Source: Saccostrea echinata (lineage: Eukaryota). From it: DNA of 64,000 nt. Position 1 is the stretch's first letter, and every line of letters begins with the position of its first letter. Under the pieces are notes generated by a model. The model had not been told where the DNA came from. It made no database searches and worked only from the letters and a program-made list of their open reading frames with translations. The stretch lies in the NCBI RefSeq assembly GCF_033153115.1, contig NW_026889753.1:11408001-11472000 (forward strand). The letters are read 5' to 3'. Shown here one piece after another: positions 3,607-50,100 of the stretch. The translations under genes were made by a program, and so were the position numbers.

Positions 3607-6600
3607 ATGTCAATGATGAGATTCTGCAGTTTTTGTGGCATCCAGTCATCAGATTTACAGAAGTGTAGTCGATGTAAGGTGGAATTATACTGCTCTAGAG
3701 TCTGTCAAAGAAATCACTGGAAGAAGGGACATAAGATGGAATGTAAGGAGGTGAGCGTTGGTAAGTGGAGAAAATATCTATATAATATGGAGCAGGTTCA
3801 GTCTATTTTATTAGGTGATGATTTATATTAATATCTGTAGAACTGTCTGAGTGCAGTTTTTGTGGCGTCCGATCTCCAGATTTAATGAGATGTAGTCGAT
3901 GTAAGGGAGAATTCTATTGTTCACGGGAATGTCAAAGAAATCACTGGAAAGCTGGACACAAGAGAAAGTGCAAGGAAGTGAGCATAGACGGTAAGATGTC
4001 ACAAAAGAAGCAAAAAAAAAACAAAAACAAAAACAAAAAACAAAAATAAAGCCAAAAAAAACCCCATTGTCTTCCTACGTTTATTCACAATGAACCATCA
4101 CGAAGTTAAACTAAACTAAATTATATTTTTTTCCAAACTGAAAATTCCAAAGTGCGCGGTTTAGAAGCTACATACCAAACCTAGTTTTCTTGAACATAAA
4201 GACTTGTCATATTATTCCAGAAAGGTCCTATAAGCCAGCCATAGGACAAACCAAATATACAAATCAAAATATAGGCCAAAAATATGCTTATCATTTAAAA
4301 GCACAGAAACTTTCCAGATTCAAAATCTTAAGTTTTGGAAAATTTTGTTTTATAATAGATCTACTACGTATAAAAAAAGGGATTAGGTTATAAAATACAT
4401 AATGAATGAGAGTCTCATATTAAGACGAAATGGAAAATGAATAAACGTCATATTGTTAAAAAAAAATAGAGCAATCTATAAAACTAGCAGTTTATACTTA
4501 TTAATCAAAGTTTGAATAATTTTATTTAATATATACATGTAGGTACCTGTATAAAAAAAAAATCAAGTTTAAGATTTTAAAATGCGTAATATTTATGCCC
4601 TGTTCACATGGAGAGTAAAATTCGCAGTAAAGGTTTACAGTAAGGATATTCAGTAAGGCTATTATGACGTCATTTTCAAATCACGACACCTTATGCAGAG
4701 CAGATCCATTTGACATAATGTCATAGTGTCTGTGCACATTTCAGTAATTAACAAAATTTTCCTTTTTTTCACTACCTATATCTGACCCCCGACATGTGGC
4801 ATGTGACTTAATTTTGCCATTATGCATCCGTCAAAATTTGATTCGAATTAGCTTCGCTCAGCGTTCACACGGAGCTAATGCGAAGTAATTTAATTAATAC
4901 GCAGTAAATTAATTCGAATTAAACCAATTCGCATTAAATGCCCCGTGTGAACGCGGTTCAAATTTAATTCGCAGTAATTTACGTATAATTCGAATTACAC
5001 TCTCCATGTGAACAGGGCATTAGATTTTTATTTTGATAGAATCAAGTTCACCAACGTTGATATGCACTTCCTGCAAAAAATCGTCAGAACAGCTAAAGAG
5101 ATGTACAGGATGTCTGCAAGTGTCTTACTGCTCCAAAGAGTGTCAACTTCAGGACTGGACGCAGAAACACAAGGATGAATGTGTGAAGATACAAGTACGA
5201 GTTGAGGAGGAAGATTGTTTACAGGAAGTGGAAAAAGACGACCAGAAAGATGTTGTCTTCAACAAAAAGAAGTCCATCGAAGAAGAAGAGAACGATCATA
5301 AATCGCTTAATGTTTGTACTGTATGTGGGGAAAAACGTCTATTGAAAGTATGCCAAAGATGTAAGGTACAAAAGTACTGCTCTGCTGAATGTCAAAAGGC
5401 AGACTGGAAAAAGCATAAATCAAACTGCACAAAAAAAGAAAAACCAACACAGAGGAGTGAAAGGGGCGCTGACGATTCATTGCCAATATGTGCAAACTGT
5501 AAAAGTCAAAGTGCAGCTTTCAGGTGTACTGGTTGTAGGGTTGTGTACTACTGTTCAGAAGATTGTCAGAAGTCAGATTCGAAAAAACACAAAACATCGT
5601 GTAAAGCATACAGATTTCAGACGAGAGTGAGAGAAACTCTAACTGTTGCAGAATGTTCTATAATGGGTCTTGTCACGCCTGAAGAACACGGAGGGAGGAA
5701 CCGAAACGACTTGAAGAACGATACCGACAAAGAAAACTTTTTGGCATTTTTTTCTTGTCGTCGATGTAAATCTGCAGCTGGGAATTGCAAAGTCACCTGT
5801 GCCGAATGTAAGTCTGTAATGTACTGCTCAAAGCTATGCATGGATCTGGATAAATCGGAACACAGAAAAATGTGTGTACCATTATGCTATCAAATATCAG
5901 GAATTTCAGTATCATCATGCAGAGGCTTTGAAGATTCTGCGGGACCTAGTCCCTTTAAACATACAACATTTTCTTCGCCTTCTCACGCCAAATTGCCCTT
6001 TCCAATAAATCCAATATTTGTTGATGATGATGCAGATCTGAAATGGATCGTTGAAAGAAACGTGCAGTCACAATATAAGGCGATAGAGAAAACTAACCGG
6101 AAGTTTCCCTATCACACTCTGATTACCCGTCTAAGGGAAATTCCAATAGAAGGGAGGTCTATGTTTACTTCCAACATATCCACACTTCCTTATGTGTTTC
6201 TCGCCTGCATTAGAAGGTTTCATAACTACAGGGGCCGCCATAATGTTTACTTGCAGGTACATGTTTAAAACTTCTTATCTCATTTGAAAAAAAATATTGA
6301 TGAATGCATTTTTTTCAATCATCCATCTGAAAGTCTAACACTATTCTTGACCATGCATCAATGCATGAAATGCAGCAATTTATTGACAGAGCTGGAAGCA
6401 CATGCATTGAGTTGTGCTTTTATATTATTGAATTAGGTACATAAAAAAATAATTTGTAAACCCTCCAATTCGTACCAAATCTGCTAGGATATTAGCCCAT
6501 GATCCACAATGATGGTCTTGATAAAGTTATAGAAATGCCCTTTATGGTGAGCGGTGCTTTTGATCAGATATCTAAATTAAAATAATGAAGTCTGTCTCAC

Positions 6601-7425
6601 AGCATCTCTATCAGGTGAAGTAGGCCGCCACGTCTATATGGTTTGACAAATATGCACTTGTAATAAGTAGAATTAGAGAACACATATACATGAAAAAAAA
6701 AAATTAAATACACCGATGTAATATATAATTATGTACCTAAAAACATTGCAACCAGAATCAAAGAGGTAAAAACATGGTTATATATAAAAACAGCAGTGGT
6801 TTGGGTGTTCTACATTTGTGGTGAAGTGCTTGTCAGAAAAACATGGAAGTATTCTGTCTATTGGAAGTGTTCAAGAAAAATAAGAAGTAATTGAATAATG
6901 TTAAGCATACATAAAGATGATGGGGATTAAGCAAGAACTTGTGAAGATTTAAAGTTTGTCCCTTGCATATGTGAAAGAATGCAAGTCATATATTGTTTTC
7001 CTTTGCACCTTTATTTTATTATTTTCTTAATGAATATAAGGTTTAATTTTAGTTAAATATTAGTGTTTAAAATATATTGGGCTTATAGATATCATATGAT
7101 ATCATTTTAGCAAAAGCCCAAATTACAGAAGATTTCTTGAATTATTTGAAGTTCCCATCGAACCTATCGATTTAGAACACTTTAATGGATTTTGTCTTTT
7201 CTTTTTCATTTTTGTCTTTGTTTTCAGGATTCTGAAAGGCGGGAAATTTATGTTTCCTTCTACCTCCCAAACGACAATCCAACACCATACTTTCAGTGGA
7301 GTGACATTGTTCCTGGAAAATTTGTCGCCATTTTGTTCCCTTGCATCCATTTCTTTGGTGATGGCACTGTTGGTTTGCGCGTGGATAAAGCCAAAAATGT
7401 TTACTGTTTTGATGTTAAAGACTAA
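3607..7425 (+). CDS. Poly-MYND zinc finger protein, paralogue A (6 MYND fingers plus uncharacterised C-terminal domain), about 572 aa
   Basis: Exons 3607-3760, 3841-3990, 5040-6256, 7228-7425; all introns GT-AG, phases 1,1,0, open throughout. Repeated C-x2-C..C-x2-C-x4-YCSxxCQxx[DH]WxxHxxxC motifs. Same exon structure as the paralogue at 24804-29891. An AG precedes the ATG at 3607, so an upstream exon is likely. Confidence 0.88.
4596..5019. mobile_element. PIF/Harbinger-type MITE in intron 2 of MYND paralogue A
   Basis: TIR TGCCCTGTTCACATGGAGAG / CTCTCCATGTGAACAGGGCA; TTA target-site duplication. Confidence 0.88.
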
Positions 7426-15279: not shown

Positions 15280-16220
15280 TGTACGCACAAGTACTCTGAA
15301 GTTGACATTAAAAGGATGCCTGAGTTTCTGATTGACAATATCTATGTGGTTTTTGGAGGCCAGGTCTTCCAACAATCTATTGGAATTCTCATGGGTACCA
15401 ATTGCGCCTCATTATTAGCAGACCTTTTTTGTATTCATATGAAGCAGAATTTGTCCAAAATCTTATACGTGAAAAGAAGAAAACACTTGCTGTGGCCTTC
15501 AACTCGACATTTACATGTAGATATATCGACGACATATTGTCAATTAACAATGGTTATTTCCATTCTTATGTCGATCCGATATATCCCGGTGAGCTTGAGA
15601 TAAAAGATAGCAGAGAGTCTGACACATCTGTTTCATACTTGGGTATTTTACTTGAAAAAGACGTTAATGGTAATCTAACAACCAAGCTTTATGATAAACG
15701 TGATGACTTTAACTTTTCAATCGTCAACTTCCCTTACTTATGCAGCAATATACCTTCATCACCTGCATACAGGGTTTATATCTCTCAGTTGATTCGAAAC
15801 GCAAGAGCATGCTCTACGTAAATACAATTTGTAAAACGAGGTAAATTATTGACAAACAAGTTGATGAAACAAGAATATCAGCAGTCTCGTTTAAAGTAAT
15901 CATTTCGTAAGTTCTATGGTCGATACAATGACCTTGCCAGCAAATACAATTTATCTTTGAGTCAAATGCTGACTGACGTTTTTCATACTAATTGTTAGGC
16001 CATTATTTACAGGCTGAATTGTCGACGGATTTTTCCGTTATTTCCCGATCATGGCAGGGAGCACACGGCGGGTGTGACAGGTCGGCAGGGGATGCTCACT
16101 CCTCCAAGGCACCTGATCCCACCTCTGATGTTTTGGAGGTCCGTGTTGCTCTGCTCCTATTTTGAATTGTTTAATGGACTTTTGAGCTTGAATAGTGTTC
16201 GTTATCTCCATATATTTCAT
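15280..16220 (+). mobile_element. 5'-truncated, frameshifted Penelope-like retroelement (RT C-half plus 3' tail)
   Basis: FQQSIGILMGTNCASLLADLF, RYIDDILSINN, TTKLYDKRDDFNFSIVNFP, PSSPAY.VYISQLIR; frameshift and stops; conserved 3' tail GGCGGGTGTGAC...GGCACCTGATCCCACC. Confidence 0.9.
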
Positions 16221-20163: not shown

Positions 20164-20989
20164 GAATTTACCCCACCAATAAAATATTTATGCATTGTCT
20201 GTGGTTTGTAAAATTGTTTTTCTCACTATATATGTTTCATCACTCATACAATGCCTGTTATGACGTCACGTTGTGTGACGTGATGTTGTTTCGTGTGCGT
20301 GTGCGAGTGTTTCGTGCTGTAATAACGTACTGACAGTTTTGAAGACTTTCAGTAAAGGGAGAAAAATGTTCCATCTTCGTTACTTACATTAGTTAACTGT
20401 AACATTGTCAACAGACACTCGGCAAATCGCGTGAACTCGAGTTGTTCGAACGTTACAAAAGAACGATAACTCCGTATCGACCATGTATTGATTTTCAAGC
20501 GACTAGGTATAAGTAATACACCCCCTTCACGTGACAGACTTCAACCAATCGTAAGCCAGGATTTCATCGAAAAATCAACAGAGGTGGGGTAATAAATATA
20601 CCCTTCACAGACTTCAGAATAAAGGCTTCTGATAAAAATAGACGGTAAAGAAATCCTGTAATACATGAAATCCGCCTTCCTATTTTAAGTTTTTCAAAAT
20701 ACAGAAGATTGGTCAGAAATAATTCTTTTTGAAAATTACCCTTATTTTCATATCCAAACGGCGTTTAATACATGTATTTTAAAAGACATTTTACAAATAA
20801 AAATAATGTAAATGCATGAACAACTTTAGAACTCTACTGTAGTGAGTTGTTTTTTGAAAATTATCGCTGCAGGCTGTAGTTTCGTTTTGTTTTCAGAGAA
20901 TTTCTTTTTAAGGTATACACGGGCGAACACTTAAGATAAAAGATAATAGGTAAGACAGTTCAAAACACTGGTAAGCATTTAAAAATAAG

Positions 20990-23023: not shown

Positions 23024-23524
23024 TTAAAATGTATTTATTGGGCTTATACTAATAAACTGCTAAAAATAGAATCACATCCGTGTACGAACCCTAACTCCGT
23101 CACCAGGGCCCTCCACAATATGTCAACGTATTAATTAGAATTTATTCCAGTATAGGTTTTTCCTCCCTTTATTTTGAACTTGTAAACAAAAAAAAATATT
23201 TTGAAAATTGAAAAAAAAAATTATTTAATTGTATTTTAAGAAAAGTATGTGTATCAACAACAGCAAAAATAACATTAATTTAACGTATTTTATATGTTAT
23301 AACGTCACGTTAACGTTATCTCCAACGTGTAGTGCAATAGTGCAAATTGAGACGAAATATAAAATATTTTCAACCGTATTCAATATGGTAAGTCATGTTT
23401 ATACGTTGGCATAGACCTTCATAAATATGACAGACATGTAAAAATGATCATTTTGATGAGCGAAATGTGCTTTTGGAGGCATCGATGAAATAGCGCATAA
23501 AGAAAATGTGCTTACTGATTTTAC

Positions 23525-24272
23525 ATTCATATGAAGCAGAGTTTGTTCAAAATCTTATACGTGAAAAGAAGAAAACATTTGCTGTGGCCTTCAACTCGAC
23601 ATTTAGATATATCGACGACGTATTGTCAATTAACAGTGGTTATTTCCATTCTTATGTCGACACGATATATCCCGGTGAGCTTGAAATAAAAGATACCACA
23701 GAGTCTGACACATCTGACTCATATTTTGATATTTTATTCGAAAAAGATGTTAATGGTAATCTAACAACCAAGCTTTATGATAAACGTGTTGAATTTAACT
23801 TTTTAATCGTCAACTTCCCTTACTTATATATATATATATATATATATATACCTACATCACCTGCATACAGGGTTTATATCTCTCGGTTGATTCGATACGC
23901 AAATGCATGCTCTACGTATGAACAATTTCTAAAACGATCTAAGATATTGACAAACAAGTTGATGAAAAAAGAGTATCAGCAGTCTCGATACAATGACCTT
24001 GTCAGCAAATACAATTTATCATTAAATCAAATGCTGACTGACGTTTTTCATACTAATTGTTAGGCCATTATTTACACACTGAATTGTCGACGGATTTTTC
24101 CGTTATTTCCTGATCATGACAAGGAGCACACAGCGGATGTGACCGGTAGGCAGGGGATGCTCACTCCTCCAAGGCACCTGATCCCACCTCTGATGTTTGC
24201 TCTGCTCCAAAATTTGTATTGTTTAATGGACTTTTGAGCTTGAATACTGTTCGTTATCTCCATATATTTCAT
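23525..24272 (+). mobile_element. Second 5'-truncated Penelope-like copy (same family as 15280-16220)
   Basis: FRYIDDVLSINS, KLYDKR...VNFP; a (TA)n expansion and a short deletion; same 3' end ATCTCCATATATTTCAT. Confidence 0.9.
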
Positions 24273-24803
24273 AAATAGATTTAGTGTTATTGTTATTTTT
24301 GAGCAGTACGTTTTTCAAAGTGGGGACAACCCTTAAAATATTACAAGGAAAAAAAACAAACAAACAAAACTAAAAAAAATCATGGAAAAAAGTAAACTCC
24401 AAAAAATATTCCATGTGTGTATATGTGCATGAAAGTGTGTGGGGGACCTTTTTCTGACTTTTCGGTTAATTTTTCTTTTCAAATTCTGGGATTTACTTGT
24501 GTTCTACCTTACGGCAACAAAAAATGGGGGAGGGGAGATTCCAAATGAAAATTTACATATTAAAATTACATTTTAAAACTTTTCTCAAAAAAGTAGCCCT
24601 CACCCCCACCCCGTACTACGGGCCTGCAGAGTTTATTTGATTTCATAAAATATCAGAAACGGATAATAGTTATGAGCATGGGCCAACTATTCCTTGCACA
24701 AATAGCTCATCAACAGCCCAGTATCCAAAATCAGCTGTGACCCAACCACTCCCAATAAGGAGGCTTTTTATATCAATGAGTTTTTAAAGATTTTACTTCA
24801 GAT

Positions 24804-27800
24804 ATGCCCATGATGAAATACTGCAGTTTTTGTGGTGTCCACTTATCAGAATTACAGAGGTGTAGTCGCTGTAAGGCAAAATTCTACTGCTCCAGGGTGT
24901 GCCAACAAAATCATTGGAAGGAGGGACACAAGAAAGAGTGTAGGGAAGTGAGCGTTGATGGTAAGAGGAATACATACCTGTGAAAAAAAGTTCTTACAGT
25001 TCAATATTTAATGGTTGTTATTAATGTCTGTAGAAATGAAGAACATTTGCAGTTTTTGTGGGATCCGATCCTCAGATTTAATGAGATGCAGTCGATGTAA
25101 GGGAGAATTTTATTGTTCACGGGAATGTCAACGAAATCACTGGAAAGCTGGACATGAGAGAGATTGCAAGGAAGTGAGCATAGACGGTAAGCCGACAGTC
25201 TTACACGAAAACAATGTTTTCCAAACTTAGGCCCCACTTTTACAAAAGAATGTATGACTAGGTCAAGAATTTCACAAACTTCATAATTTTTTGAGATTAT
25301 AATTATATAATTTTAAAAACAAAATTGATTTTTATTAATATTAAATCACAATTTTATCAACGTTAAAATGAAAATAAAATTGCAAAACGACCCAAGACCA
25401 AAATCTTGGGTCGTACCTTCTTCTGAAAGACTGTGTATGGAACAGTGTTGCATCCTCAGATTTAAGTACAGTAAATCACGTTTTATTCGTGAGAATTTTA
25501 TTTTCGCGTAATTACTTGAGACAATGTGCTCGCAAAAATTTTCTTCTCGTGATATTAGTATTCCTATAGATTGTATGGAGTAATAGGCACAATTTGTGAA
25601 TACTTCTTCTTGCTAATAAAGAGTAAATGGCTATCTCGCGAAAGTAAAGTGTCGCGGAAATTTAGTGAACTACAATATATATGGACGGTACCATTGTCCT
25701 CCTACAAATTCATAATAAAATGCAGAAATTTATTGTTATTCATATTCAATAAGCTCTCTGGGAGCAAAGTATTTTCCTCTAAAAATATATTTCTTCATTG
25801 TAGATATATATTTATAAATAATAAATTTTGCAAATAATCTCCGAAACACCTGCACCAGAGTCATACTTATTCCTCTAATATTACACTAATTATGAGATGT
25901 TGTCCGTCAAATATATATCGATTTCACTCGCATAGTAATTATAGTAAATTTAATTTAAAATCTATTTTCATTTTCGATAAACAGCCGTGAAATAGCAAAA
26001 AAAAAGATAGTACGGTGGTGGTTACGGTTGGCGGATCTAAGTCATTGGCAATTTGTAATGAAACTGATAACAATCGAATAATTCTTTAATATATAGTCAT
26101 TAATGAATGATTTACTAGTAATCAAAACTTTATTAAATTGATACAGGAGAGATAAGTTGTGAGAACTGACTAAAACACAAAACGTGCAAATCATTTTCTC
26201 CAATGGCCAATCATACAATTAGTATTGATGAAAATTTCTAGAACGTCAAATGCCATTGAACCCGATGTTTAAAAAAAATGAGGGGATGTAATATCACTAA
26301 AAAAAATCATATGGATGGGCATGGAAATAATGGTAAAGCGATTGATAACATTATAAGATGTGAATGTATTTATATATATTATAAGACTATTGGTAATTTG
26401 TGCTAGTAAATGTTTACCGTTAAAATGTGCATATTCGCCACTGAGCGCATCATGGCAACGTATCCGAAGTGTTATATAATTAACATTTTACTAACCTGTT
26501 AAAATTTTATACTTCAGTTCAGTGGGGTTTGCTGCATACAGTCTTTTGTATGAAATATTAGGCACATAAACAAGGTATGAACCCCCCCCCCCCCCCCCCG
26601 AAAAAAAATAGAAACAAAAGCATTCTGAGAGTATTGCATTAGCAATACTAGTCCCCAACCGGCAAGTGTAATCTGGTTCCCGTAAAAATTGAAAATGCTA
26701 TAATTCCGTCAAAAATCAATGAAGCGGAATGAAATGCAATCTTGATCTATAACTCATCAAGATAAAGTCACATACTAAAAATCAGCTCAATATCTGCAAG
26801 CGTTTAGAAAAAAGTGCGGAAAACCCTGAAAAATTGAAAATGTCGTAATTCCGTCAAAAATCATTGAAGTGGAACGAGATGCAAACTTATTCTGTAACTC
26901 GACAAGATACACTCACATACCAAAAATCAGCTCAATATCTGCAAGCGTTTAGAAGAAAATTGCGGAAAACCAAGTGGGACAGACGGACAGACAGACAGAC
27001 AGACAGACTCAGAGGAAACCTATAGTCCCCTCCGGTTTCACCGGTAGGGGAATAATAACAATAATATTCATGTGCTGACAAATTCTGTAAAATGTGCACA
27101 TTCACTTCTTTTATCATGATGGAAATGGAAACGGAGTGCCTGAAGTATAAATTTACAACATAAAACAACATGTATAAAATAAAGTTGCTAACAGGGCTCT
27201 CGATTTTCTATGGGGCTGTTCAAGTGCCCAATTCCCAAGTCAAAAAGGTACCTATTTTCCCAATAGTCATTTCTTCCAAAAATTAAGAAAATATAGTTAG
27301 ATATATAATAACTTAAGTTATTTATATTCCTCTGTATTGCAAAAAAAGAAATTTAGTTGATATCAAGGACCAGAAACCCAGTATATATAATGATTTTAAA
27401 GTATGATGGTTATCCAAAAATTTCCCCCCAAATGTCGCCATTTTCCCAATCTTTATGACCCCGGCCCCATTCCCAAAAAGCAGTTTGAGAGCCATGGGCT
27501 AACATGTAAAGAGAAAACTTCTATTAATGAAATTTATATTTTTCAAGTTAAAAAAAAGAGGACGTATTTCTCCTTCTCCTAAACTAATTTTAAACCAAGA
27601 ATTTTTTTCCTGCATAATACTACGACTTTTATTTTAATAGATTCAAGTTCACCAATTTTGTCATGCACTTCCTGCAAGAAACGGTCAGAGCAGCTAAAGA
27701 GATGTACAGGATGTCTGCAGGTGTCTTATTGCTCCAGAGAGTGTCAACGTCAGCACTGGACACAAAAACACAAGGATGAATGTGTGAAGATACATGTACG

Positions 27801-29891
27801 AGCTGAGAGAGATGGTTTACAAGGAGTGGAGAAAGGCGACCAGAAAGATGTCTTCAACAAAGAGTCGACCGTTGATGAAGAAGATCATAGTAAAGTACAA
27901 TTTCTGGCTTTAACAATTTTAGTTGATTAGATTATATCATTTGTTTATATTATAATTTTTGCACAACATGGTTTCCACACTTTTTATCCATAGTCGCTGT
28001 TGCTCTGCTGTAGAAATTCCCCCAACCGAAAATTCCAATTCTTCTTCTTCTCCTAAACTAAGTTCAAACAAAGAATTTTTACCTGCATAATACTGAGATT
28101 TTTATTTTAATAGAATTAAGTTCACAAATTTTGTCGTGCACTTCCTGCAAGAAACCGTCAGAGCAGCTACAGAGATGTACAAGATGTCTGAAGGTGTCTT
28201 ATTGCTCCAGAAAGTGTCAAAGTCAGGACTGGACACAAAAACACAAGGATGAATGTGTGAAGATACATGTACGAGCTGAGGAGAGAGATGGTTTACAAGG
28301 AGTGGAGAAAGGCGACCAGAAAGATGTCTTTAACAAAGAGTCGACCGTTGATGAAGAAGATAACGATCATAAACCGCTAAATGTTTGTACTGTATGCAGA
28401 AAAACAGGTACAATAAAAGTATGCCAAAGATGTAAACTACAAAAATACTGCTCTCCTGAATGTCAAAAAGCAGACTGGAAAACGCACAAATCAATTTGCA
28501 CCGTAGAGGGAAAACCAACATGTGGGAATAAAAAGGGCCCTGGCAGTCCTTTGCCAATATGTGCAAACTGTAGAAGTCAAAGTGCAGAACTCAGGTGTTC
28601 TGGCTGTAGGGTTGTTTATTACTGTTCAAAAGATTGCCAAAAGTCTGATTGGAATAAACACAAAACATCATGTAAAGCATACAGATCTCAGCCGAGAGTG
28701 AGAGAGACTCTCACTATTGCAGAGTGCTCATTAATGGGTCTTGTCACGCCGGAAGAACACGGAGGGAGAAACCAAAATGACGGGAAAATCCAGTTTGGAG
28801 AAAAAAAAGATTTTACAGATTTTTCCTGCAATCGGTGTTTAAAAAAACTAGCCCCTGGGACTTTCAATGTCACTTGTACCATGTGTAAATCTTCAATTTA
28901 CTGCTCAGAACACTGTATGGAACTGGATAAATCTGAACACAAAAAAACATGTGCAACATCCGATTTACCAGGTTCAGGTATAACAATGTCGTCATGCGTT
29001 TACAATTCTGCGGACGGTCAATCTTTAAGATTTGACATTTCTCCTTCCCACGCCAAATTACCCTACCCAAGAAATCCATTATTTGTTACTGATAATGCGG
29101 ATTTAAAGTGGATTGTGGAAAGAACTGCGCAATCACGCAGTAAGGCGATAGAGAAAACTAAAAGAAAGTTTCCCTATCACACTCTGATAACCCGTCTCAG
29201 AGAAATTCCAATAGAAGGGAAATCTGCGTTTTCCTCTAACATTGCTACACTTCCTTATGTGTTTCTCGCCTACATTAGAAGGTTCCATAACTACAGGGGC
29301 TGTCATAGTGTATACTTGCAGGTAAATTATTCATGTACATTAAATATTTAATCATCCAATCAAAGACAGTTTGTAAGGATATAGACCAGGGTAAACGATC
29401 CGACCTTTTGGCTTGGATGAAGTTAAATATAGAAATGTTTATTTTTATGACTAGTATTTCTGTCATTTTTTTAAACCATAAATATTTGAAAAAGAAGAAA
29501 AAGGAAAAAACATTAATGCGCTTGGTTATCTATTTGTGGGGAAGTCCTTGACACCAAAGCATGGATGTCTAACTTCTAATTTGTAAAATGGATGGATTAT
29601 CAAAAAAGGATATTTATTTTATAAAGTTCATGGGAACCGTCTCCTTTGTTTTTAACATTACAGTGTTTGATTCTGGTAATATTTTGCTTTCAGGATTCTG
29701 ATAGACGGGAGATTTATGCTTCCTTCTACCTCCCAAACGACGACCCAACACCATACTTTCAGTGGAGTGACGTTGTTCCTGGAAAATTCGTCGCCGTTTT
29801 GTTCCCTTGCATCCATTTCTTTTTAGATTTCACTGTTGGTTTGCGCGTGGATAAAGCCAAGAATTTTTACTGTTTTGATGTTAAAGACTAA
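24804..29891 (+). CDS. Poly-MYND zinc finger protein, paralogue B (7 MYND fingers plus uncharacterised C-terminal domain), about 654 aa
   Basis: Exons 24802/24804-24960, 25034-25186, 27641-27889, 28114-29321, 29694-29891; GT-AG with phases 1,1,1,0. The 27641-27889 exon is a duplicate of the start of the next exon and its inclusion is inferred. An upstream exon may exist. Confidence 0.85.
26612..27055 (-). mobile_element. HINE-like element in intron 2 of MYND paralogue B
   Basis: TAGTCCCC..CCGG subterminal motif at both ends, two units of about 148 bp, a (GACA)n tract, and a terminal CCCCTCCGG..CCGGTAGGGG hairpin. Confidence 0.75.
27192..27496. mobile_element. hAT-like MITE
   Basis: CAGGGCTCTC / GAGAGCCATG termini and internal TTCCCAA repeats. 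Confidence 0.55.
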
Positions 29892-30074
29892 ATGTTTACT
29901 TTTGAGATTTATGATTCCTTCTACCTCCCAAACGATGGTCCAACACCATTCATTCAGTGGAGTGACATTGTTCCTGAGAAAAAATTGTCGCCATTTTGTT
30001 CCCTTGCATCCATTTTACTTAATGATTGCATTGTTGACTTGCGCGTAGATGAAGCCAAACATTTTTATTGTTAG
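29892..30074 (+). pseudogene. Degenerate tandem copy of the last coding exon of MYND paralogue B, directly after its stop codon
   Basis: GAGATTTATGATTCCTTCTACCTCCCAAACGA...CAGTGGAGTGACATTGTTCCT...TTGCGCGTAGATGAAGCCAA matches 29709-29875 with indels; no clear acceptor retained. Confidence 0.8.
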
Positions 30075-33534: not shown

Positions 33535-33846
33535 TCATTGTGGATCTTTCCTTGTTTCTACACACCAGCAGTATTTGAACATCCAAACTTCAGATATCCC
33601 TTATTCAGTCTTCGGTGGATCATGTATTGTTTTCAACACGTCTGAAATATTTGAATATCCATAATATGGATTTTCAAGGATATTTCTACCATAAATCGAG
33701 AGGATCAAGTATTAATTTCCAAACCTAAAGAGTATTTGAATATTCACACAGTGGATTTTGTGTCCCAGTCCTGTCATAAGTAGATCATGTATTGTTTTCC
33801 ACACGTCTAGAGTATTTGAATATCCACACAGTGGATTTTGTGTCCC
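33535..33846 (-). repeat. Four tandem units of about 75-85 bp derived from the last codons of the TRIM gene
   Basis: GATCATGTATTGTTTTC.ACACGTCT..A.TATTTGAATATCCA recurs at about 33542, 33617, 33702 and 33782. Confidence 0.8.
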
Positions 33847-35752
33847 CTATCCAGAGATACCCCTCTTTGTCCAATGCAAGCGCGTTGGGACCCCGAATTC
33901 CATAATTCTCCGTAATCAGAAATCCAATGAACTGTCCACTCAAATCCAGTAAATGGATTGCGTGGTTACTCCAGTCAGCAACCAGTACGTGACCGTGTTT
34001 GTCGGAGACAATTCCGAAGGGATTAAATGGTTTCTTCACTCTGTAGTCTTTCTGTCCCGTATATTTATTCTTGACAAACCCGTCCAGGGTGATCGTTGTC
34101 GTGTGAACCTCAGCTTCTTCTCGATCGGATACAACAATATCTCCCAGCATGTTCTCATGCAGACGATAAGGTGCGGTAAAGATGGCGGTAAATCCATCGT
34201 CTTCAATCATATCTATAATTTTTCCCGCCTCGCTGATTCGAATGATCATTCGCCTAGATCTGGAATTCCTTGTTGTGACGTAACTGTCCACTGCACAGAC
34301 AAGCAGCTCGTTCCGCTTGGTATACGTCATTCCCCCTGGGTACAAGTCCAGATGCACGAAATCGGTCTGCTTTAGGTCTCCATCTAGCTTTATGATCTTT
34401 TTGTCGTCGTAGCTAGAGACTAAGATGTCGCCGTTTGGCTTTGTGAGGATGTCGTCAATCTGAATATCCAATTTGACCGTCCTAAGTTTCTCGCCCTCTC
34501 TTGAGTAAAGGTTCATTTCTTGGGTCCCCCATCCGTGACAAATCCAAGCTTCCTTCTCTGAGAGTGGAGCTATTGCATGTATAGTATCAATGTGGTTGGC
34601 AACCTTGAAGTTGTACATCAGTTGAACATCAAAATTTAAGGCTATTCGGAGACCCCAGGGGATAGGCAACATAGGCAGCTTAATTTCCGTGGTGTCACAT
34701 GACCCAAACATCTCCTCCAAATTTGAGCCATGGGATTCTCCAACATGGAAGTTGCTGCTCACGGCAGGATGTAAGCCAACCTGAGGTATCTCTTTGTCTG
34801 CGTGCTTAAACCTATTCTGTAACTTCTGACACATCAACACCACCTCGCTGTCGCTCCCAAGGTTTATCGCCTCCTCCGCCGACTTAGTAATGGTGGAGAC
34901 AGACCGAAGAGTATTCTCGATAGTTTTAGCATGTGTTTCTATGCGATTGGATTCGGTCTTTAATTTTCCTTCCACTCCCTCCACCAACGAGTTGCAGATT
35001 TTCTGTAGTTCTTGTTGAAGGTATTTGCAACGACTTTTGATCTCGTTAACAGTTTCCTCGGCGTAATCAGCCAGAAGCTTTTTGGTTGAGTGCAGTTCAT
35101 TGAGGTAGTCCTGTAAACATGGCAGGTATTCGTGCATGCTCTGTATCATAGGTTTCACTTTGCTTCTTTTCTCCTTTGCCCCTTCAACGATGTTTTTATA
35201 TCGGTGTCCCTTGTGTTCGGACACTTTTGTGACGCAGTCCTTGCAGATCGGGGTTTCGCACAAAATACAATAGTAAACTGTTTCTTCTTTATGTTTTTCA
35301 CAAAATGACCGATGAGTTAGTTTAGTAATGCTTTTTGCCTCTTGTGGTGACAGTTCTATCACATGATGGTCACGTGTCTCATTTGCTTTCATGTGGCGGG
35401 TATTGCAAGGCTTGCAAAAATTACTGTTACACTCAAGACATCTGGAATGTGCTTGTTGCTCGTTTTCTTTGCACGTGTCACATTTACAATTTGTTGAATA
35501 AGTGGCACTTGCCAATATAGCCCTGACGTAATAATTTTGTTTGAGTCCTTTGATTCCAGTTTTCGGAATGGTGATTTCCAGATGGCATATCGGGCACGGG
35601 AAGGTAACCTTGGAATGAGCATTATGTGTATGTTTCTCCAAGCACTCACAACAAAAGGTGTGGAAACAGTCCAGGATTCTTGGATCGTTGTATCTCTTAT
35701 GACACAGCCCACACATAAGCGGATCAGAAGAAACTTCTGATGGGTCCCCCAT
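33785..35752 (-). CDS. TRIM-family E3 ubiquitin ligase (RING, B-box1, B-box2, coiled coil, NHL-like beta-propeller), TRIM2/3/71-like invertebrate type, 655 aa, intronless CDS
   Basis: RING CGLC...CFHTFCCECL...CPIC; B-box1 CDTC...CLEC...FCKPC..RH; B-box2 CEKH...YYCILCETPICKDC..H..H; helical region; C-terminal NHL-like repeats (FNPFGIVSDKHGHVLVADWSNHAIHLLD, GPNALALDKEGYLWIGD). Confidence 0.95.
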   Translation of the reverse strand: MGDPSEVSSDPLMCGLCHKRYNDPRILDCFHTFCCECLEKHTHNAHSKVTFPCPICHLEITIPKTGIKGLKQNYYVRAILASATYSTNCKCDTCKENEQQAHSRCLECNSNFCKPCNTRHMKANETRDHHVIELSPQEAKSITKLTHRSFCEKHKEETVYYCILCETPICKDCVTKVSEHKGHRYKNIVEGAKEKRSKVKPMIQSMHEYLPCLQDYLNELHSTKKLLADYAEETVNEIKSRCKYLQQELQKICNSLVEGVEGKLKTESNRIETHAKTIENTLRSVSTITKSAEEAINLGSDSEVVLMCQKLQNRFKHADKEIPQVGLHPAVSSNFHVGESHGSNLEEMFGSCDTTEIKLPMLPIPWGLRIALNFDVQLMYNFKVANHIDTIHAIAPLSEKEAWICHGWGTQEMNLYSREGEKLRTVKLDIQIDDILTKPNGDILVSSYDDKKIIKLDGDLKQTDFVHLDLYPGGMTYTKRNELLVCAVDSYVTTRNSRSRRMIIRISEAGKIIDMIEDDGFTAIFTAPYRLHENMLGDIVVSDREEAEVHTTTITLDGFVKNKYTGQKDYRVKKPFNPFGIVSDKHGHVLVADWSNHAIHLLDLSGQFIGFLITENYGIRGPNALALDKEGYLWIGDTKSTVWIFKYSRRVENNT

Positions 35753-47110: not shown

Positions 47111-50100
47111 ATGACATCTCGAAGCGTGCGGAAGGTAACGGAGAGCGTAGAGCAGTCAGAAGGAGAGGGAGATGGAACCACCATCAAGCGGTGCCTCGGG
47201 GACGATGTGGTAAGGCTACCCTTATCCTGTGTTTCCCATCTGGTGGATTTTTATACACGTATATTGCATACATATTTATCATGATTATTTTTATATTCAA
47301 AAGATATAGTTGATCTGAGCTCGTACTTCTGAGCATTGTTTTGTGTTTAATTTTGATATTTACTGTTTACTATAAAGCACAATGTATTTTTTGTGATCAG
47401 TCAAACATAATTGACAGTTTTATTTTGTTTTTTTTAGTGGATAATGTTAAACACTAACAAATGAGATCATAATAACATTGTGTTTTTAGTCTGACATTGT
47501 TGACCCATTTCTTATGTTGGACGAGTTTACGGTAAATCCCCCCACTGGTTTCCCTGACCATCCTCACAGAGGCTTTGAACTGGTGAGTCACTTGATGTCA
47601 AATGAAAGACTAGTGTTTATTTTATTGTGTATTTTATCAGGGACAATTTTGGGCATATGATTTTTAAAATATGTAACAAATCTCAAAGTGGTACATGTAC
47701 TGCAGTGTAAATTCTATTCTAATGAAAAATACCAGTATGAAATCATACTGAGTGACTTAATTGTTATAGTTTTTTTTTTTAATTTTTCATAAGTTAATTT
47801 TAATCATGTATTACTGACTATGAATATAAACTAAAGTCCTTCAACATGTTCAAAGCAGAAGGTAGATGATATCAAAGACAGGGAAAATCCCTCACAAACC
47901 ATATCAGGATTTTTTTTTTTAAATAAGAAACTGACATATCAGGCAGTATATGATATGCACCGTATATTGTGTTGTAGGTTTCCTATATTTTAAAAGGCAC
48001 TGGTCAGCATGAGGATTTTTTAGGAAATAAAGGAAAGCTAAAGACTGGGGATGTTCAGGTAGCTATTTATGTAAAATCCTGTGTAAACTAATCTTCATGT
48101 TATCTGGAAAGGAAAAGGGAGGAGGGGGGGGTGTTAATGCAAATGAACAGGACAGATAATAAATCTCTGGGAATCAAGATGGAGAAAAAAAAGCAGTGCT
48201 TCACATTTAATCACTTGATGAAATCTCAACCAGTTTTTAGATAAATTATTAAACACAATGTTAAAACTTCTCACCCAAATCAGATGCTGCATTCATTGTT
48301 CTTTATGCCTATTGGCTAAGATTGTCAGATGGATACCTTTATGGCATATCTCTTCAGATTTAAGTGACATTTTAACAGTTTTTGAATCATAATGTGTGTT
48401 ATATTTTATGACATTGAATGCAATGTTGCATCTATTACTGACTTTAGTGGCTGACTGCTGGACGTGGAATTGTACACTGTGAGTGGTCTTATGGCGAGGA
48501 AAAAGCTCATGGGCTACAGCTGTGGATTAATCTTGCCAAAGAACAGAAAATGCAGGAACCATCATGTCAAGAGATGCTTGCAGATGATATCCCAAGGGCA
48601 TCCAAAGAAGGCATAGAGGTCAAGGTCATTGCTGGAGAGGCATTTGGTGTCAAGGTAAACTTTCTCTAGGGGTCATAGTACTGTTGGAACATTTTATTGC
48701 AAAACTTCATTGTGAGGAAGTATGATTTTAGAAAGTCAGATTTTGATAAATCTTGTCTCCACAGTTTTAGTCCATAATTAATGTACAGATACTTTATTTA
48801 ACGAAGAAGTTTTTCACTTTAAGTTTGTTTACGTGATTACTGCATTTTGAAAAAAAATGCTGTGATATCAAGGTATAAAAGTAAACACCCATGATTTTTT
48901 TTTTTTTTTTTTTGGAAGTTGAAATGTGAAATTTGAATTCTTGAAATTGAAATTCAGTGAATTTACAACATAATCAACTTTAAAATTAAGGCACCTATTT
49001 AAAATGCTAGAGACTAAAGCTAATAATTTTTAGAATTAATTGTGAACTCCTTTTCTTCGTTGCAGTCCAAGATTAGGACCAGGACTCCAACTCTTTATTT
49101 ACATTTTACAATGAATGAAGGCACTAAATTAAGTCAGCCAATTCCCAAAGGCTGGAATGCATTTATTCATGTCCTCTCTGGCAAGGCATTATTTGGTATG
49201 TATTATGAATTTCAAAGCCAAACATATAATGATTCATGCATTGATCTGTTGTTTGTTTCAGAATTTTATCATTTTTGATGCACATGGTCTTAAAATCATT
49301 ATTTAAATGATATGATTTATTGAAAAAATTATTTGCTCTAACTTTAGGTCCAGAGAGCAAAGAAAAACTAGTAAATCCAACCCAGACTGCCATCTTAAAT
49401 GCTGAAGGAGACTGTGTGATAGCTCAAAACCAGGTATTTTGAAACCCAGTAGTATCTTAATTGTATGGTAGCTCAAAACAATAGGAATTTTGATAACTCG
49501 CTCAGTGGTAACTTGTGTGGTAGCTCAAAACCAGGTATTTTGAAACCCAGTGGTATCTTAATTGTATGGTAGCTCAGTGCCACAGGAATTTTGATAAATC
49601 ACTCAGTGGTAACTTGCATGGTAGCTCAAAACCAGGTATTTTGAAACCCACTGGTATCTTAATTGTTTAGTAGCTCAAAACCACAGGAATTTTGATAACT
49701 CACTCAGTGGTTACTTGTGTGGTAGCTCAAAACCAGGTATTTTGAAACCCAGTGGTATTTTAATGGTATATTAGCTCAAAACCAAAGGAATTTTGATAAC
49801 TCACTCAGTGGTAACTTGTGTGGTAGCTCAAAACCAGGTATTTTGAAACCCAGTAGTATCTTAATTGTATGGTAGCTCAAAACCACAGGAATTTGATAAC
49901 TCACTCAGTGGTAACTTGTGTGGTAGCTCAAAACTATATAGGAATTTTGATAACTCACTCAGTGGTATCTTGTGTGGTAGTTCAAAACCAGGTATTTTGA
50001 AACCCAGTAGTATCTTAATTGTATGGTAGCTCAAAACTACCGGTATATAGGAATTTTGATAACTCACTCAGTGGTAACTTGTGTGCTAGCTCAAAACCAG

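What the first reader, a model, noticed from the sequence alone, without database searches (positions are those of the whole stretch)
27560..28370. A new MYND exon being born by tandem duplication in paralogue B
Seen: about 27570-27889 is a near-identical copy of the intron end and first 250 nt of the large exon starting at 28114, including branch and acceptor sequence. The copy ends at GATCATA|GTAAAG, giving a 249 nt phase 1-1 exon that would add one finger in frame. Paralogue A lacks it. The single-MYND upstream exons also end in phase 1, and the internal ones are phase 1-1. Inference: finger number can change by exon duplication and by exon skipping, producing combinatorial isoforms.
Basis: partly seen in the sequence, partly recalled or inferred. 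Interest (0 to 1): 0.7.

Follow-up and report, generated by a model that had tools for sequence, protein, structure and literature searches.

The report
Duplicated zinc-finger exon in oyster gene
An oyster gene carries a second, spliced-in copy of the start of one exon, which adds a seventh MYND zinc finger; the copy was likely made by faulty DNA repair at the end of a jumping element, and it is an established exon, not one just being born.

Summary
The duplication is real and expressed. 27566-27889 copies 28038-28371 (297 of 317 aligned bases match). The 249-nt exon 27641-27889 is spliced in: the upstream joint appears in 7 of 7 close-matching runs, the downstream joint in 6 of 7, a skip joint in 0 of 7 (contigs drop rare forms). 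RefSeq already models it (Saccostrea echinata LOC133179178, 654 aa, 7 MYND fingers).

The S. cucullata orthologue has the same finger duplicated as an annotated cassette with a different end; Ostrea edulis has another finger duplicated.

The copies' 3' halves look homogenised by gene conversion, so similarity likely understates age. Their fingers differ at 9 amino-acid-changing sites and 1 silent site (not significantly above neutral). The protein is an unnamed multi-MYND plus predicted OB-fold adaptor.

Finger number changing by duplication is supported; 'being born' and combinatorial skipping here are not. Known kind: intron gain by duplication across an intron-exon boundary. The scan's notes held nothing on this DNA.

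The parts
20834..20950 (+). Non-coding first exon of paralogue B (start approximate)
   Evidence: Loose end of 115-117 nt before 24800 in X1 and X2 matches 20919-20948, followed by AG|GTAAGA
24802..24960 (+). Exon with ATG (24804) and MYND finger 1; ends in phase 1
25034..25186 (+). 153-nt phase 1-1 exon, finger 2
27566..27889 (+). Upstream copy of the duplicated unit (about 75 nt of intron end plus exon start)
27641..27889 (+). The added 249-nt phase 1-1 exon (83 codons); finger 3a at 27664-27783, all eight zinc ligands kept
   Evidence: joints; P0001
27756..27885 (+). Tract almost identical between the copies (1 substitution in about 131 nt); likely gene conversion
   Evidence: Fisher p=0.0016 against the finger part, p=0.0012 against the intron part
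27890..28113 (+). New 224-nt GT..AG intron
   Evidence: joint 27889>28114
27888..27912 (+). Junction filler carrying the donor GT (27890); resembles an internal piece of a 1.2-kb TIR repeat family ('TE2'), with TA shared at both ends
   Evidence: suggestive, not proven
27911..28037 (.). Right-hand 127 nt, with the terminal inverted repeat, of a non-autonomous TIR DNA transposon of about 2 kb ('TE1'); its terminus abuts the second copy
   Evidence: 40 of 40 scored matches include 38 dispersed copies; ends and short target duplications
28038..28371 (+). Downstream copy of the duplicated unit; finger 3b at 28137-28256
28114..29321 (+). Large exon: fingers 3b, 4, 5, 6 and the start of the C-terminal domain
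29073..29891 (+). C-terminal domain (P0001 507-654, split by intron 29322-29693), predicted OB fold
3607..7425 (+). Paralogue A (LOC133178927, 6 fingers), without the duplicate

Best explanation
A partial tandem duplication of an intron end plus the first 258 nt of the large exon gave this oyster gene an extra in-frame exon that is spliced in and adds a seventh MYND finger; it likely arose by template-switching repair at the end of a DNA transposon. Shown: the upstream copy inherits the acceptor; the donor GT lies at the first base of a foreign filler at the junction; the unit stays in frame between phase-1 exons; both joints are used and inclusion is the only form seen; a transposon's right terminus abuts the downstream copy. 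Inferred (about 0.45 among mechanisms): TE1 sat 76 nt before the acceptor on one chromatid or haplotype, and a break inside it was joined through a short templated filler to a break in the exon of the other. Inferred: the filler came from a second transposon family (about 0.6); the 3' halves were later homogenised by gene conversion, so the event is older than 94% identity suggests and may predate the split from S. cucullata (about 0.55). Predicted function: the protein is an adaptor whose MYND array binds proline-rich peptides and whose OB fold binds single-stranded nucleic acid; the extra finger would raise avidity and free one copy to drift or retune.
For: Joints 25186>27641 in 4 of 4 runs and 27889>28114 in 4 of 4; 27889>28114 in X4 and X5, and B's own exon tail before 27640 in X4, X5, X7. 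Exon model equals P0001. Unspliced read-through of the copy stops 14 codons past the donor. TE1 termini, inverted repeats and 3-4-bp target duplications; only one TE1-end match in the 94 kb examined. Filler: 12 further genome matches against 1 for the reversed control; 23 of 25 identical in 5 of 5 fetched loci. Substitutions clustered 11 in 114 nt against 1 in 131 nt. B and S. cucullata LOC134250136 are sisters, 100/98; its isoform X1 equals X2 plus a 66-aa duplicate of the same finger. Gln and Trp that bind peptide in DEAF-1/ETO MYND (PMC3555993, passages) stand in both fingers. OB fold: pLDDT 79, best match TTC5 OB, Z 9.6, rmsd 4.2, 128 aligned.
Against: The order of events cannot be read from one haplotype. 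The filler matches all come from one repeat family and were selected for matching; among 20 copies chosen without regard to it, 13 differ at 4 of 25 positions and only 1 at 3, with about 0.07 such matches expected in an assumed 10-Mb repeat library. No excision footprint or second TE1 end at the first copy. The finger tree groups the two echinata copies (83/83, weak), as expected of an independent duplication. 9 non-synonymous to 1 synonymous is not above neutral (P=0.36). Contigs cannot exclude minor skipping. No binding data; a shared fold shows no function, and the top Z values are tied.
Confidence: 0.68

Rival explanations
1. Alternative transposition (hybrid element insertion or reversed-ends type): transposase joined the TE1 right end to the site before the acceptor, giving copy-element-copy, and most of the element was deleted afterwards.
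For: The terminus abuts the second copy to the base. De novo maize duplications have the element between the copies and lack one at one breakpoint (PMC3744419, passages).
Against: Needs a second, large deletion. No matching target duplication or second end. The three genomic maize cases have an element at the start of both copies (section 10); here only one.
Confidence: 0.25
2. A whole-gene tandem duplicate (B1, B2) was later fused by a deletion from B1's large exon to a TE1 insertion in B2's intron; the 'exon duplication' is the overlap of a chimeric gene.
For: The family duplicates in tandem (A and B; four copies on C14). It explains a TE end at the homology boundary and the faster change of the downstream finger (7 of the 9 amino-acid differences match A in the upstream copy or are nearer to it).
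Against: No other remnant of a third gene in 94 kb. The same finger duplicated in the S. cucullata orthologue would need the fusion to be old or repeated.
Confidence: 0.18
3. One reading: a very young, still optional exon that yields combinatorial isoforms by skipping.
For: The skip form is open (571 aa). The donor ATA|GTAAAG is further from consensus than the gene's other donors. Relatives have annotated with/without isoforms. Some differences between the copies are polymorphic (27683, 28170).
Against: No skip joint in 7 runs; inclusion joints have depth like the downstream exon. One RefSeq protein only. Intron parts differ at 8 of 72 bases.
Confidence: 0.12
4. Assembly artefact or dead duplicate.
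For: None found.
Against: 20 mismatches and three indels between copies, a unique junction, and spliced contigs through both copies in 3 studies.
Confidence: 0.01

Closest known systems
Intron gain by tandem duplication across an intron-exon boundary: potato RdRp gene PGSC0003DMG402000361 (PMC4974935; passages and section 5 read)
   Same: Intron 3' end plus exon 5' part duplicated; acceptor and pyrimidine tract inherited; new donor activated; exon spliced in; copies differ by a few bases.
   Different: In potato the donor is a cryptic exon site. Here it sits in foreign junction filler next to a transposon end. The S. cucullata cassette ends at a position that would be an exon-internal donor (inferred from protein), like potato.
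Recurrent tandem exon duplication (PMC3342872, passages; cites 7-17% of metazoan genes, Gao and Lynch 2009, which was not held)
   Same: Repeated duplication of domain-sized exons in related lineages.
   Different: Usually mutually exclusive splicing; here both copies are in one transcript, and only part of a multi-finger exon was copied.
TIR-transposon-associated duplications: single-copy Pack-TIRs by gap filling (PMC8277862, passages) and Ac reversed-ends duplications (PMC3744419, passages and section 10)
   Same: Local duplication with a DNA transposon end at a breakpoint; short microhomologies.
   Different: Only one transposon end is present, so the copy is not enclosed by two TIRs; no target-duplication pair.
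MYND-finger proteins DEAF-1, ETO, BS69/ZMYND11 (PMC3555993, passages); TTC5 C-terminal OB domain (PDB 2xvs)
   Same: C4-C2HC ligands and the peptide-binding Gln and Trp; OB-fold topology.
   Different: Those carry one finger; this unnamed family has up to seven before an OB-like domain that no Pfam model matches.

Membership tests
Intron gain by internal duplication across an intron-exon boundary | Duplicated unit spans an intron 3' end and the following exon start | tested here: met
Intron gain by internal duplication across an intron-exon boundary | New intron is removed from mature RNA | tested here: met
   27889>28114 in 6 of 7 close-matching runs
Intron gain by internal duplication across an intron-exon boundary | Outgroups lack the intron (gain, not loss) | tested here: met
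   Paralogue A by DNA; LOC134250137 and the Ostrea, Magallana and Crassostrea proteins have one finger 3 (protein level only)
Potato-type subtype | Donor is a cryptic site recruited from exon sequence | tested here: not met
   GT at 27890 has no counterpart in the parent exon, which continues AACCG
Mutually exclusive or cassette tandem exons | Isoforms that use one copy only | tested here: inconclusive
   0 of 7 runs show skipping, but contigs drop rare forms; cassettes annotated in two relatives
Pack-TIR | Captured sequence lies between two TIR ends of one element | tested here: not met
   Only the right end found; at most a 4-nt resemblance to the left end at 27560
Alternative-transposition duplication | Element terminus exactly at a duplication breakpoint | tested here: met
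   28037/28038
Alternative-transposition duplication | Target-site duplication shared with the reciprocal deletion or first element | not testable with these tools
   No second end or reciprocal allele available
Retroposon insertion with a giant target-site duplication | Non-LTR element with a 3' tail and long flanking repeats in other copies | tested here: not met
   Element has TIRs and 3-4-bp duplications
zf-MYND (PF01753) | Eight zinc ligands, C4-C2HC, above the Pfam cut-off | tested here: met
   7 stretches, 235.5 bits; both copies keep all ligands
OB-fold nucleic-acid-binding domains | OB topology | tested here: met
   Predicted model; top Foldseek and VIA-align rows are OB folds
OB-fold nucleic-acid-binding domains | Binds single-stranded DNA or RNA | not testable with these tools
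   Needs an assay

The most novel reading that the evidence does not exclude
One transposon-triggered duplication in the Saccostrea ancestor was resolved differently in two sister species: S. echinata splices it in always, through a donor lent by a transposon scrap, and lets the downstream finger diverge, while S. cucullata makes it an optional cassette through an exon-internal donor and lets the upstream finger diverge. It would be one step of an accordion by which an unnamed multi-MYND/OB adaptor family tunes its valency under selection.
Probability: 0.2. Interest if true: 0.58.

Novelty: new member of a known kind. Interest (0 to 1): 0.32.

Why it matters
It is a well-resolved case of domain gain in which source, both breakpoints, the new donor and RNA use can all be read, in a family where finger number varies from one to seven. 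With sister-species DNA it would test directly whether the same duplication can end as a constitutive or an optional exon depending on where the donor comes from. The mechanism class is known and the exon is already in RefSeq, so surprise is modest.

Tried and rejected
Giant target-site duplication of a retroposon: rejected; the spacer is a TIR element with 3-4-bp duplications, and the 111-nt repeat in L017 is a paralogous site without the element.

Positive selection on the fingers: not shown (P=0.36 against neutral; p=0.038 against the other four fingers' A-B pattern, one of several tests, uncorrected).

Shared versus parallel origin with S. cucullata: the finger tree is unresolved and that species' DNA could not be fetched.

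X10 (another organism label) laid as 49 diverged pieces from several paralogues; its 27799>28355 joint is a mapping effect and says nothing on the duplicate. No listed holder was on record as RNA; GT..AG joints at four introns show spliced material. No genomic reads were available for copy number.

A local template for the filler: only the 25-nt match itself in 94 kb. A's and B's introns do not align upstream of the unit, so the ancestral left flank is unknown.

Print searches: MYND+oyster+expansion+zinc finger gave 2 papers, neither on this by title and abstract start; six locus ids gave 0; a species search listed 10, none on this. Gao and Lynch 2009 was not held. No supplements were read. 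Earlier scan notes: none nearby or by sequence; eight loosely related by words, none used.
Full report
Setting. The window is G000:C4:11408001-11472000 of a 923-Mb genome. The large exon matches RefSeq protein XP_061169952.1, LOC133179178 of Saccostrea echinata, at 100%, on a contig of the same length as C4. Two tandem paralogues lie in the window: A (3607-7425, six MYND fingers) and B (20834-about 30500, seven).

Observation. 27568-27885 aligns to 28042-28361 with 297 matches, 20 mismatches and 4 gap columns, score 520 against at most 29 in 100 shuffles. The unit extends to 27889, since CATA equals 28368-28371 after a 6-nt deletion, and back to about 27566/28038. The parent stretch is 258 nt; 3-nt and 6-nt deletions give 249 nt, all multiples of three. 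The exons 24802-24960, 25034-25186, 27641-27889, 28114-29321 and 29694-29891 have AG/GT ends, phases 1, 1, 1, 0, and translate exactly to the 654-aa RefSeq protein. A has one copy.

RNA. Ten runs were listed; eight were laid, all as contigs. In X1, X2, X3 and X6, joints 24960>25034, 25186>27641, 27889>28114 and 29321>29694 are each present in 4 of 4 runs, and no 25186>28114 joint is listed. In X4, X5 and X7 the sequence before 27640 is B's own upstream exon (3 of 3); 27889>28114 appears in X4 and X5; each run has two partly laid contigs, both accounted for, neither at 28114. X10, a distant relative by identity, was uninformative. So inclusion is seen upstream in 7 of 7 and downstream in 6 of 7 close-matching runs (4 samples, 3 studies), skipping in 0 of 7. 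Contigs drop rare forms, so minor skipping stays open. The run types are guesses by the tool; GT..AG joints at four introns show spliced material. Artefact and dead duplicate are refuted.

The junction. 27911-28037 is the end of a dispersed element: 38 of the 40 scored matches to the region are to this stretch elsewhere. Eight copies fetched with 10-kb flanks define an element of about 2 kb with terminal inverted repeats and 3-4-bp target duplications and no long ORF: a non-autonomous DNA transposon, here TE1. Its right terminus ends at 28037 and the second copy begins at 28038. The fragment differs from the majority of the eight at 12 of 124 positions; the copies themselves at 3-10%. No other TE1 end lies in the 94 kb examined. 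My first idea, a retroposon with a giant target duplication, is thereby rejected.

The donor. The GT at 27890 is the first base pair of a 21-nt filler with no counterpart in the parent exon. The filler has 12 further matches within two mismatches against 1 for the reversed control; five fetched loci all belong to a 1.2-kb TIR family, TE2, and match 23 of 25 with TA shared at both ends (662 candidates). Against this: the hits are one family and were selected; of 20 copies chosen by overall similarity, 13 differ at 4 of 25, 1 at 3 and 6 at 5 or more, with about 0.07 four-mismatch hits expected in an assumed 10-Mb repeat library. I put the TE2 origin at about 0.6. Without this donor, read-through stops 14 codons later.

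Divergence of the copies. Over 54 codons of the finger part there are 9 non-synonymous and 1 synonymous differences; over the 27-codon linker 0 and 1. Eleven substitutions fall in the first 114 nt and one in the last 131 (p=0.0016), and the intron part differs at 8 of 72 (p=0.0012 against the 3' tract). The linker is not conserved between A and B, so conversion is likelier than constraint (inference). With A as outgroup most changes lie in the downstream finger. The excess is not significant against neutrality (P=0.36) and only nominally against the other fingers (p=0.038, uncorrected). At least two differences are polymorphic (27683; 28170). All zinc ligands and the Gln and Trp that contact peptide in DEAF-1/ETO (PMC3555993, passages) are kept.

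Relatives. On the C-terminal 320 residues B is sister to S. cucullata LOC134250136 (100/98; 83% identical, 11 proteins). Its isoform X1 is X2 plus exactly 66 residues, a duplicate of the same finger-3 start, 53 of 64 aligned residues identical to its parent. It ends 198 nt in, at the Lys-Gly position that reads AAAG|GC in S. echinata, so its donor is probably exon-internal (inference from protein). O. edulis X1 is X2 plus 53 residues, a near-identical copy of finger 1. These are annotation models; their read support was not seen. The finger tree weakly joins the two echinata copies (83/83), which fits parallel duplication or conversion. One event on the shared branch is more parsimonious, conversion is evident, and the cucullata pair is as diverged as the species; I give shared origin about 0.55. 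Among 41 more distant homologues of 230 aa or more (of 71 hits), finger counts run from 0 to 7 by pattern, and Pfam found only zinc-finger families in the 18 scanned (one also hit Ecl1).

The protein. Pfam finds seven MYND fingers and nothing for the C-terminal domain. A model of residues 507-654 from 23 sequences (pLDDT 79, pTM 0.77) matches OB folds: TTC5 OB Z 9.6, rmsd 4.2, 128 aligned, tied within 1 Z with Teb1 and MCM10 (Foldseek best E 3.5e-4); Atlas look-alikes are unnamed fungal and mollusc clusters. Likely role (inferred): a multivalent adaptor joining proline-rich partners to a nucleic-acid-binding fold; the added finger would raise avidity and relax constraint on one copy.

Mechanism. 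Shown: unit, breakpoints, inherited acceptor, junction donor, frame, inclusion. Inferred: TE1 lay before the acceptor on one DNA molecule; a break inside it was joined by template-switching repair, via the filler, to the exon of a molecule lacking it (about 0.45). Rivals: alternative transposition then deletion (0.25; PMC3744419, passages and section 10) and fusion of two whole-gene duplicates (0.18).

Comparison. The closest case is the potato RdRp intron gain (PMC4974935, passages and section 5): same geometry, but a cryptic exon donor. Tandem exon duplication is common and recurrent (PMC3342872, passages). TIR elements are known to cause local duplications with microhomology in animals (PMC8277862, passages), but the two-TIR criterion is not met here. 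I found no paper on this gene or family; supplements were not read and may list these loci.

Verdict. Observation confirmed; interpretation partly supported. A real, expressed, already annotated domain gain of a known kind, with a readable transposon-associated junction and a parallel in the sister species. Interest 0.32.

Noticed in passing
window 29904-30072: Degenerate second copy of B's last coding exon (29709-29874; 145 matches, 19 mismatches, frameshifting gaps) in the 3' UTR; transcribed; absent from A; one X2 contig joins 29931>30089.
   Followed up: partly
window 4597-5018: A different inverted-repeat element sits about 21 nt before the homologous acceptor in paralogue A, so both paralogues have a TIR-type insertion just before this exon (read).
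   Followed up: no
window 28157-28300: X4 and X5 have no contig for finger 3b; the junction contig runs into a path like finger 3a, and X5's carries 3b's extra codon. Either assembler bubble removal or a haplotype with both fingers identical (ongoing conversion).
   Followed up: partly
window 33785-35770 (-): Single-ORF RING/B-box/coiled-coil/NHL (TRIM-NHL-like) gene next to B.
   Followed up: partly
window 23494-24063 and 15513-15752: Repeated fragment with a YIDD motif, resembling a reverse transcriptase end (recalled; no Pfam hit), in B's first intron.
   Followed up: no
G000:C14:5367505-5435780; C25:820357 and 29010483: Six further family members, four in tandem on C14.
   Followed up: partly
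P0031, P0053, P0054: UniRef names Magallana and Crassostrea members 'phytol kinase', probably an automatic mislabel.
   Followed up: no
P0003 residues 1-90: The RefSeq model of A has an N-terminal extension that B and the orthologues lack; not checked against RNA.
   Followed up: no
L017 (G000:C27:13504800-13514799): A TE1 insertion with a paralogous site nearby that lacks the element and carries a short duplicated motif, possibly an excision footprint.
   Followed up: partly
L006 and L007 (G000:C50): Two loci 375 kb apart are 98% identical over 3.1 kb: segmental duplication or uncollapsed haplotype.
   Followed up: no
window 40565-42781 and 49316-50097: Tandem arrays with units of about 168, 89 and 101 nt.
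   Followed up: no
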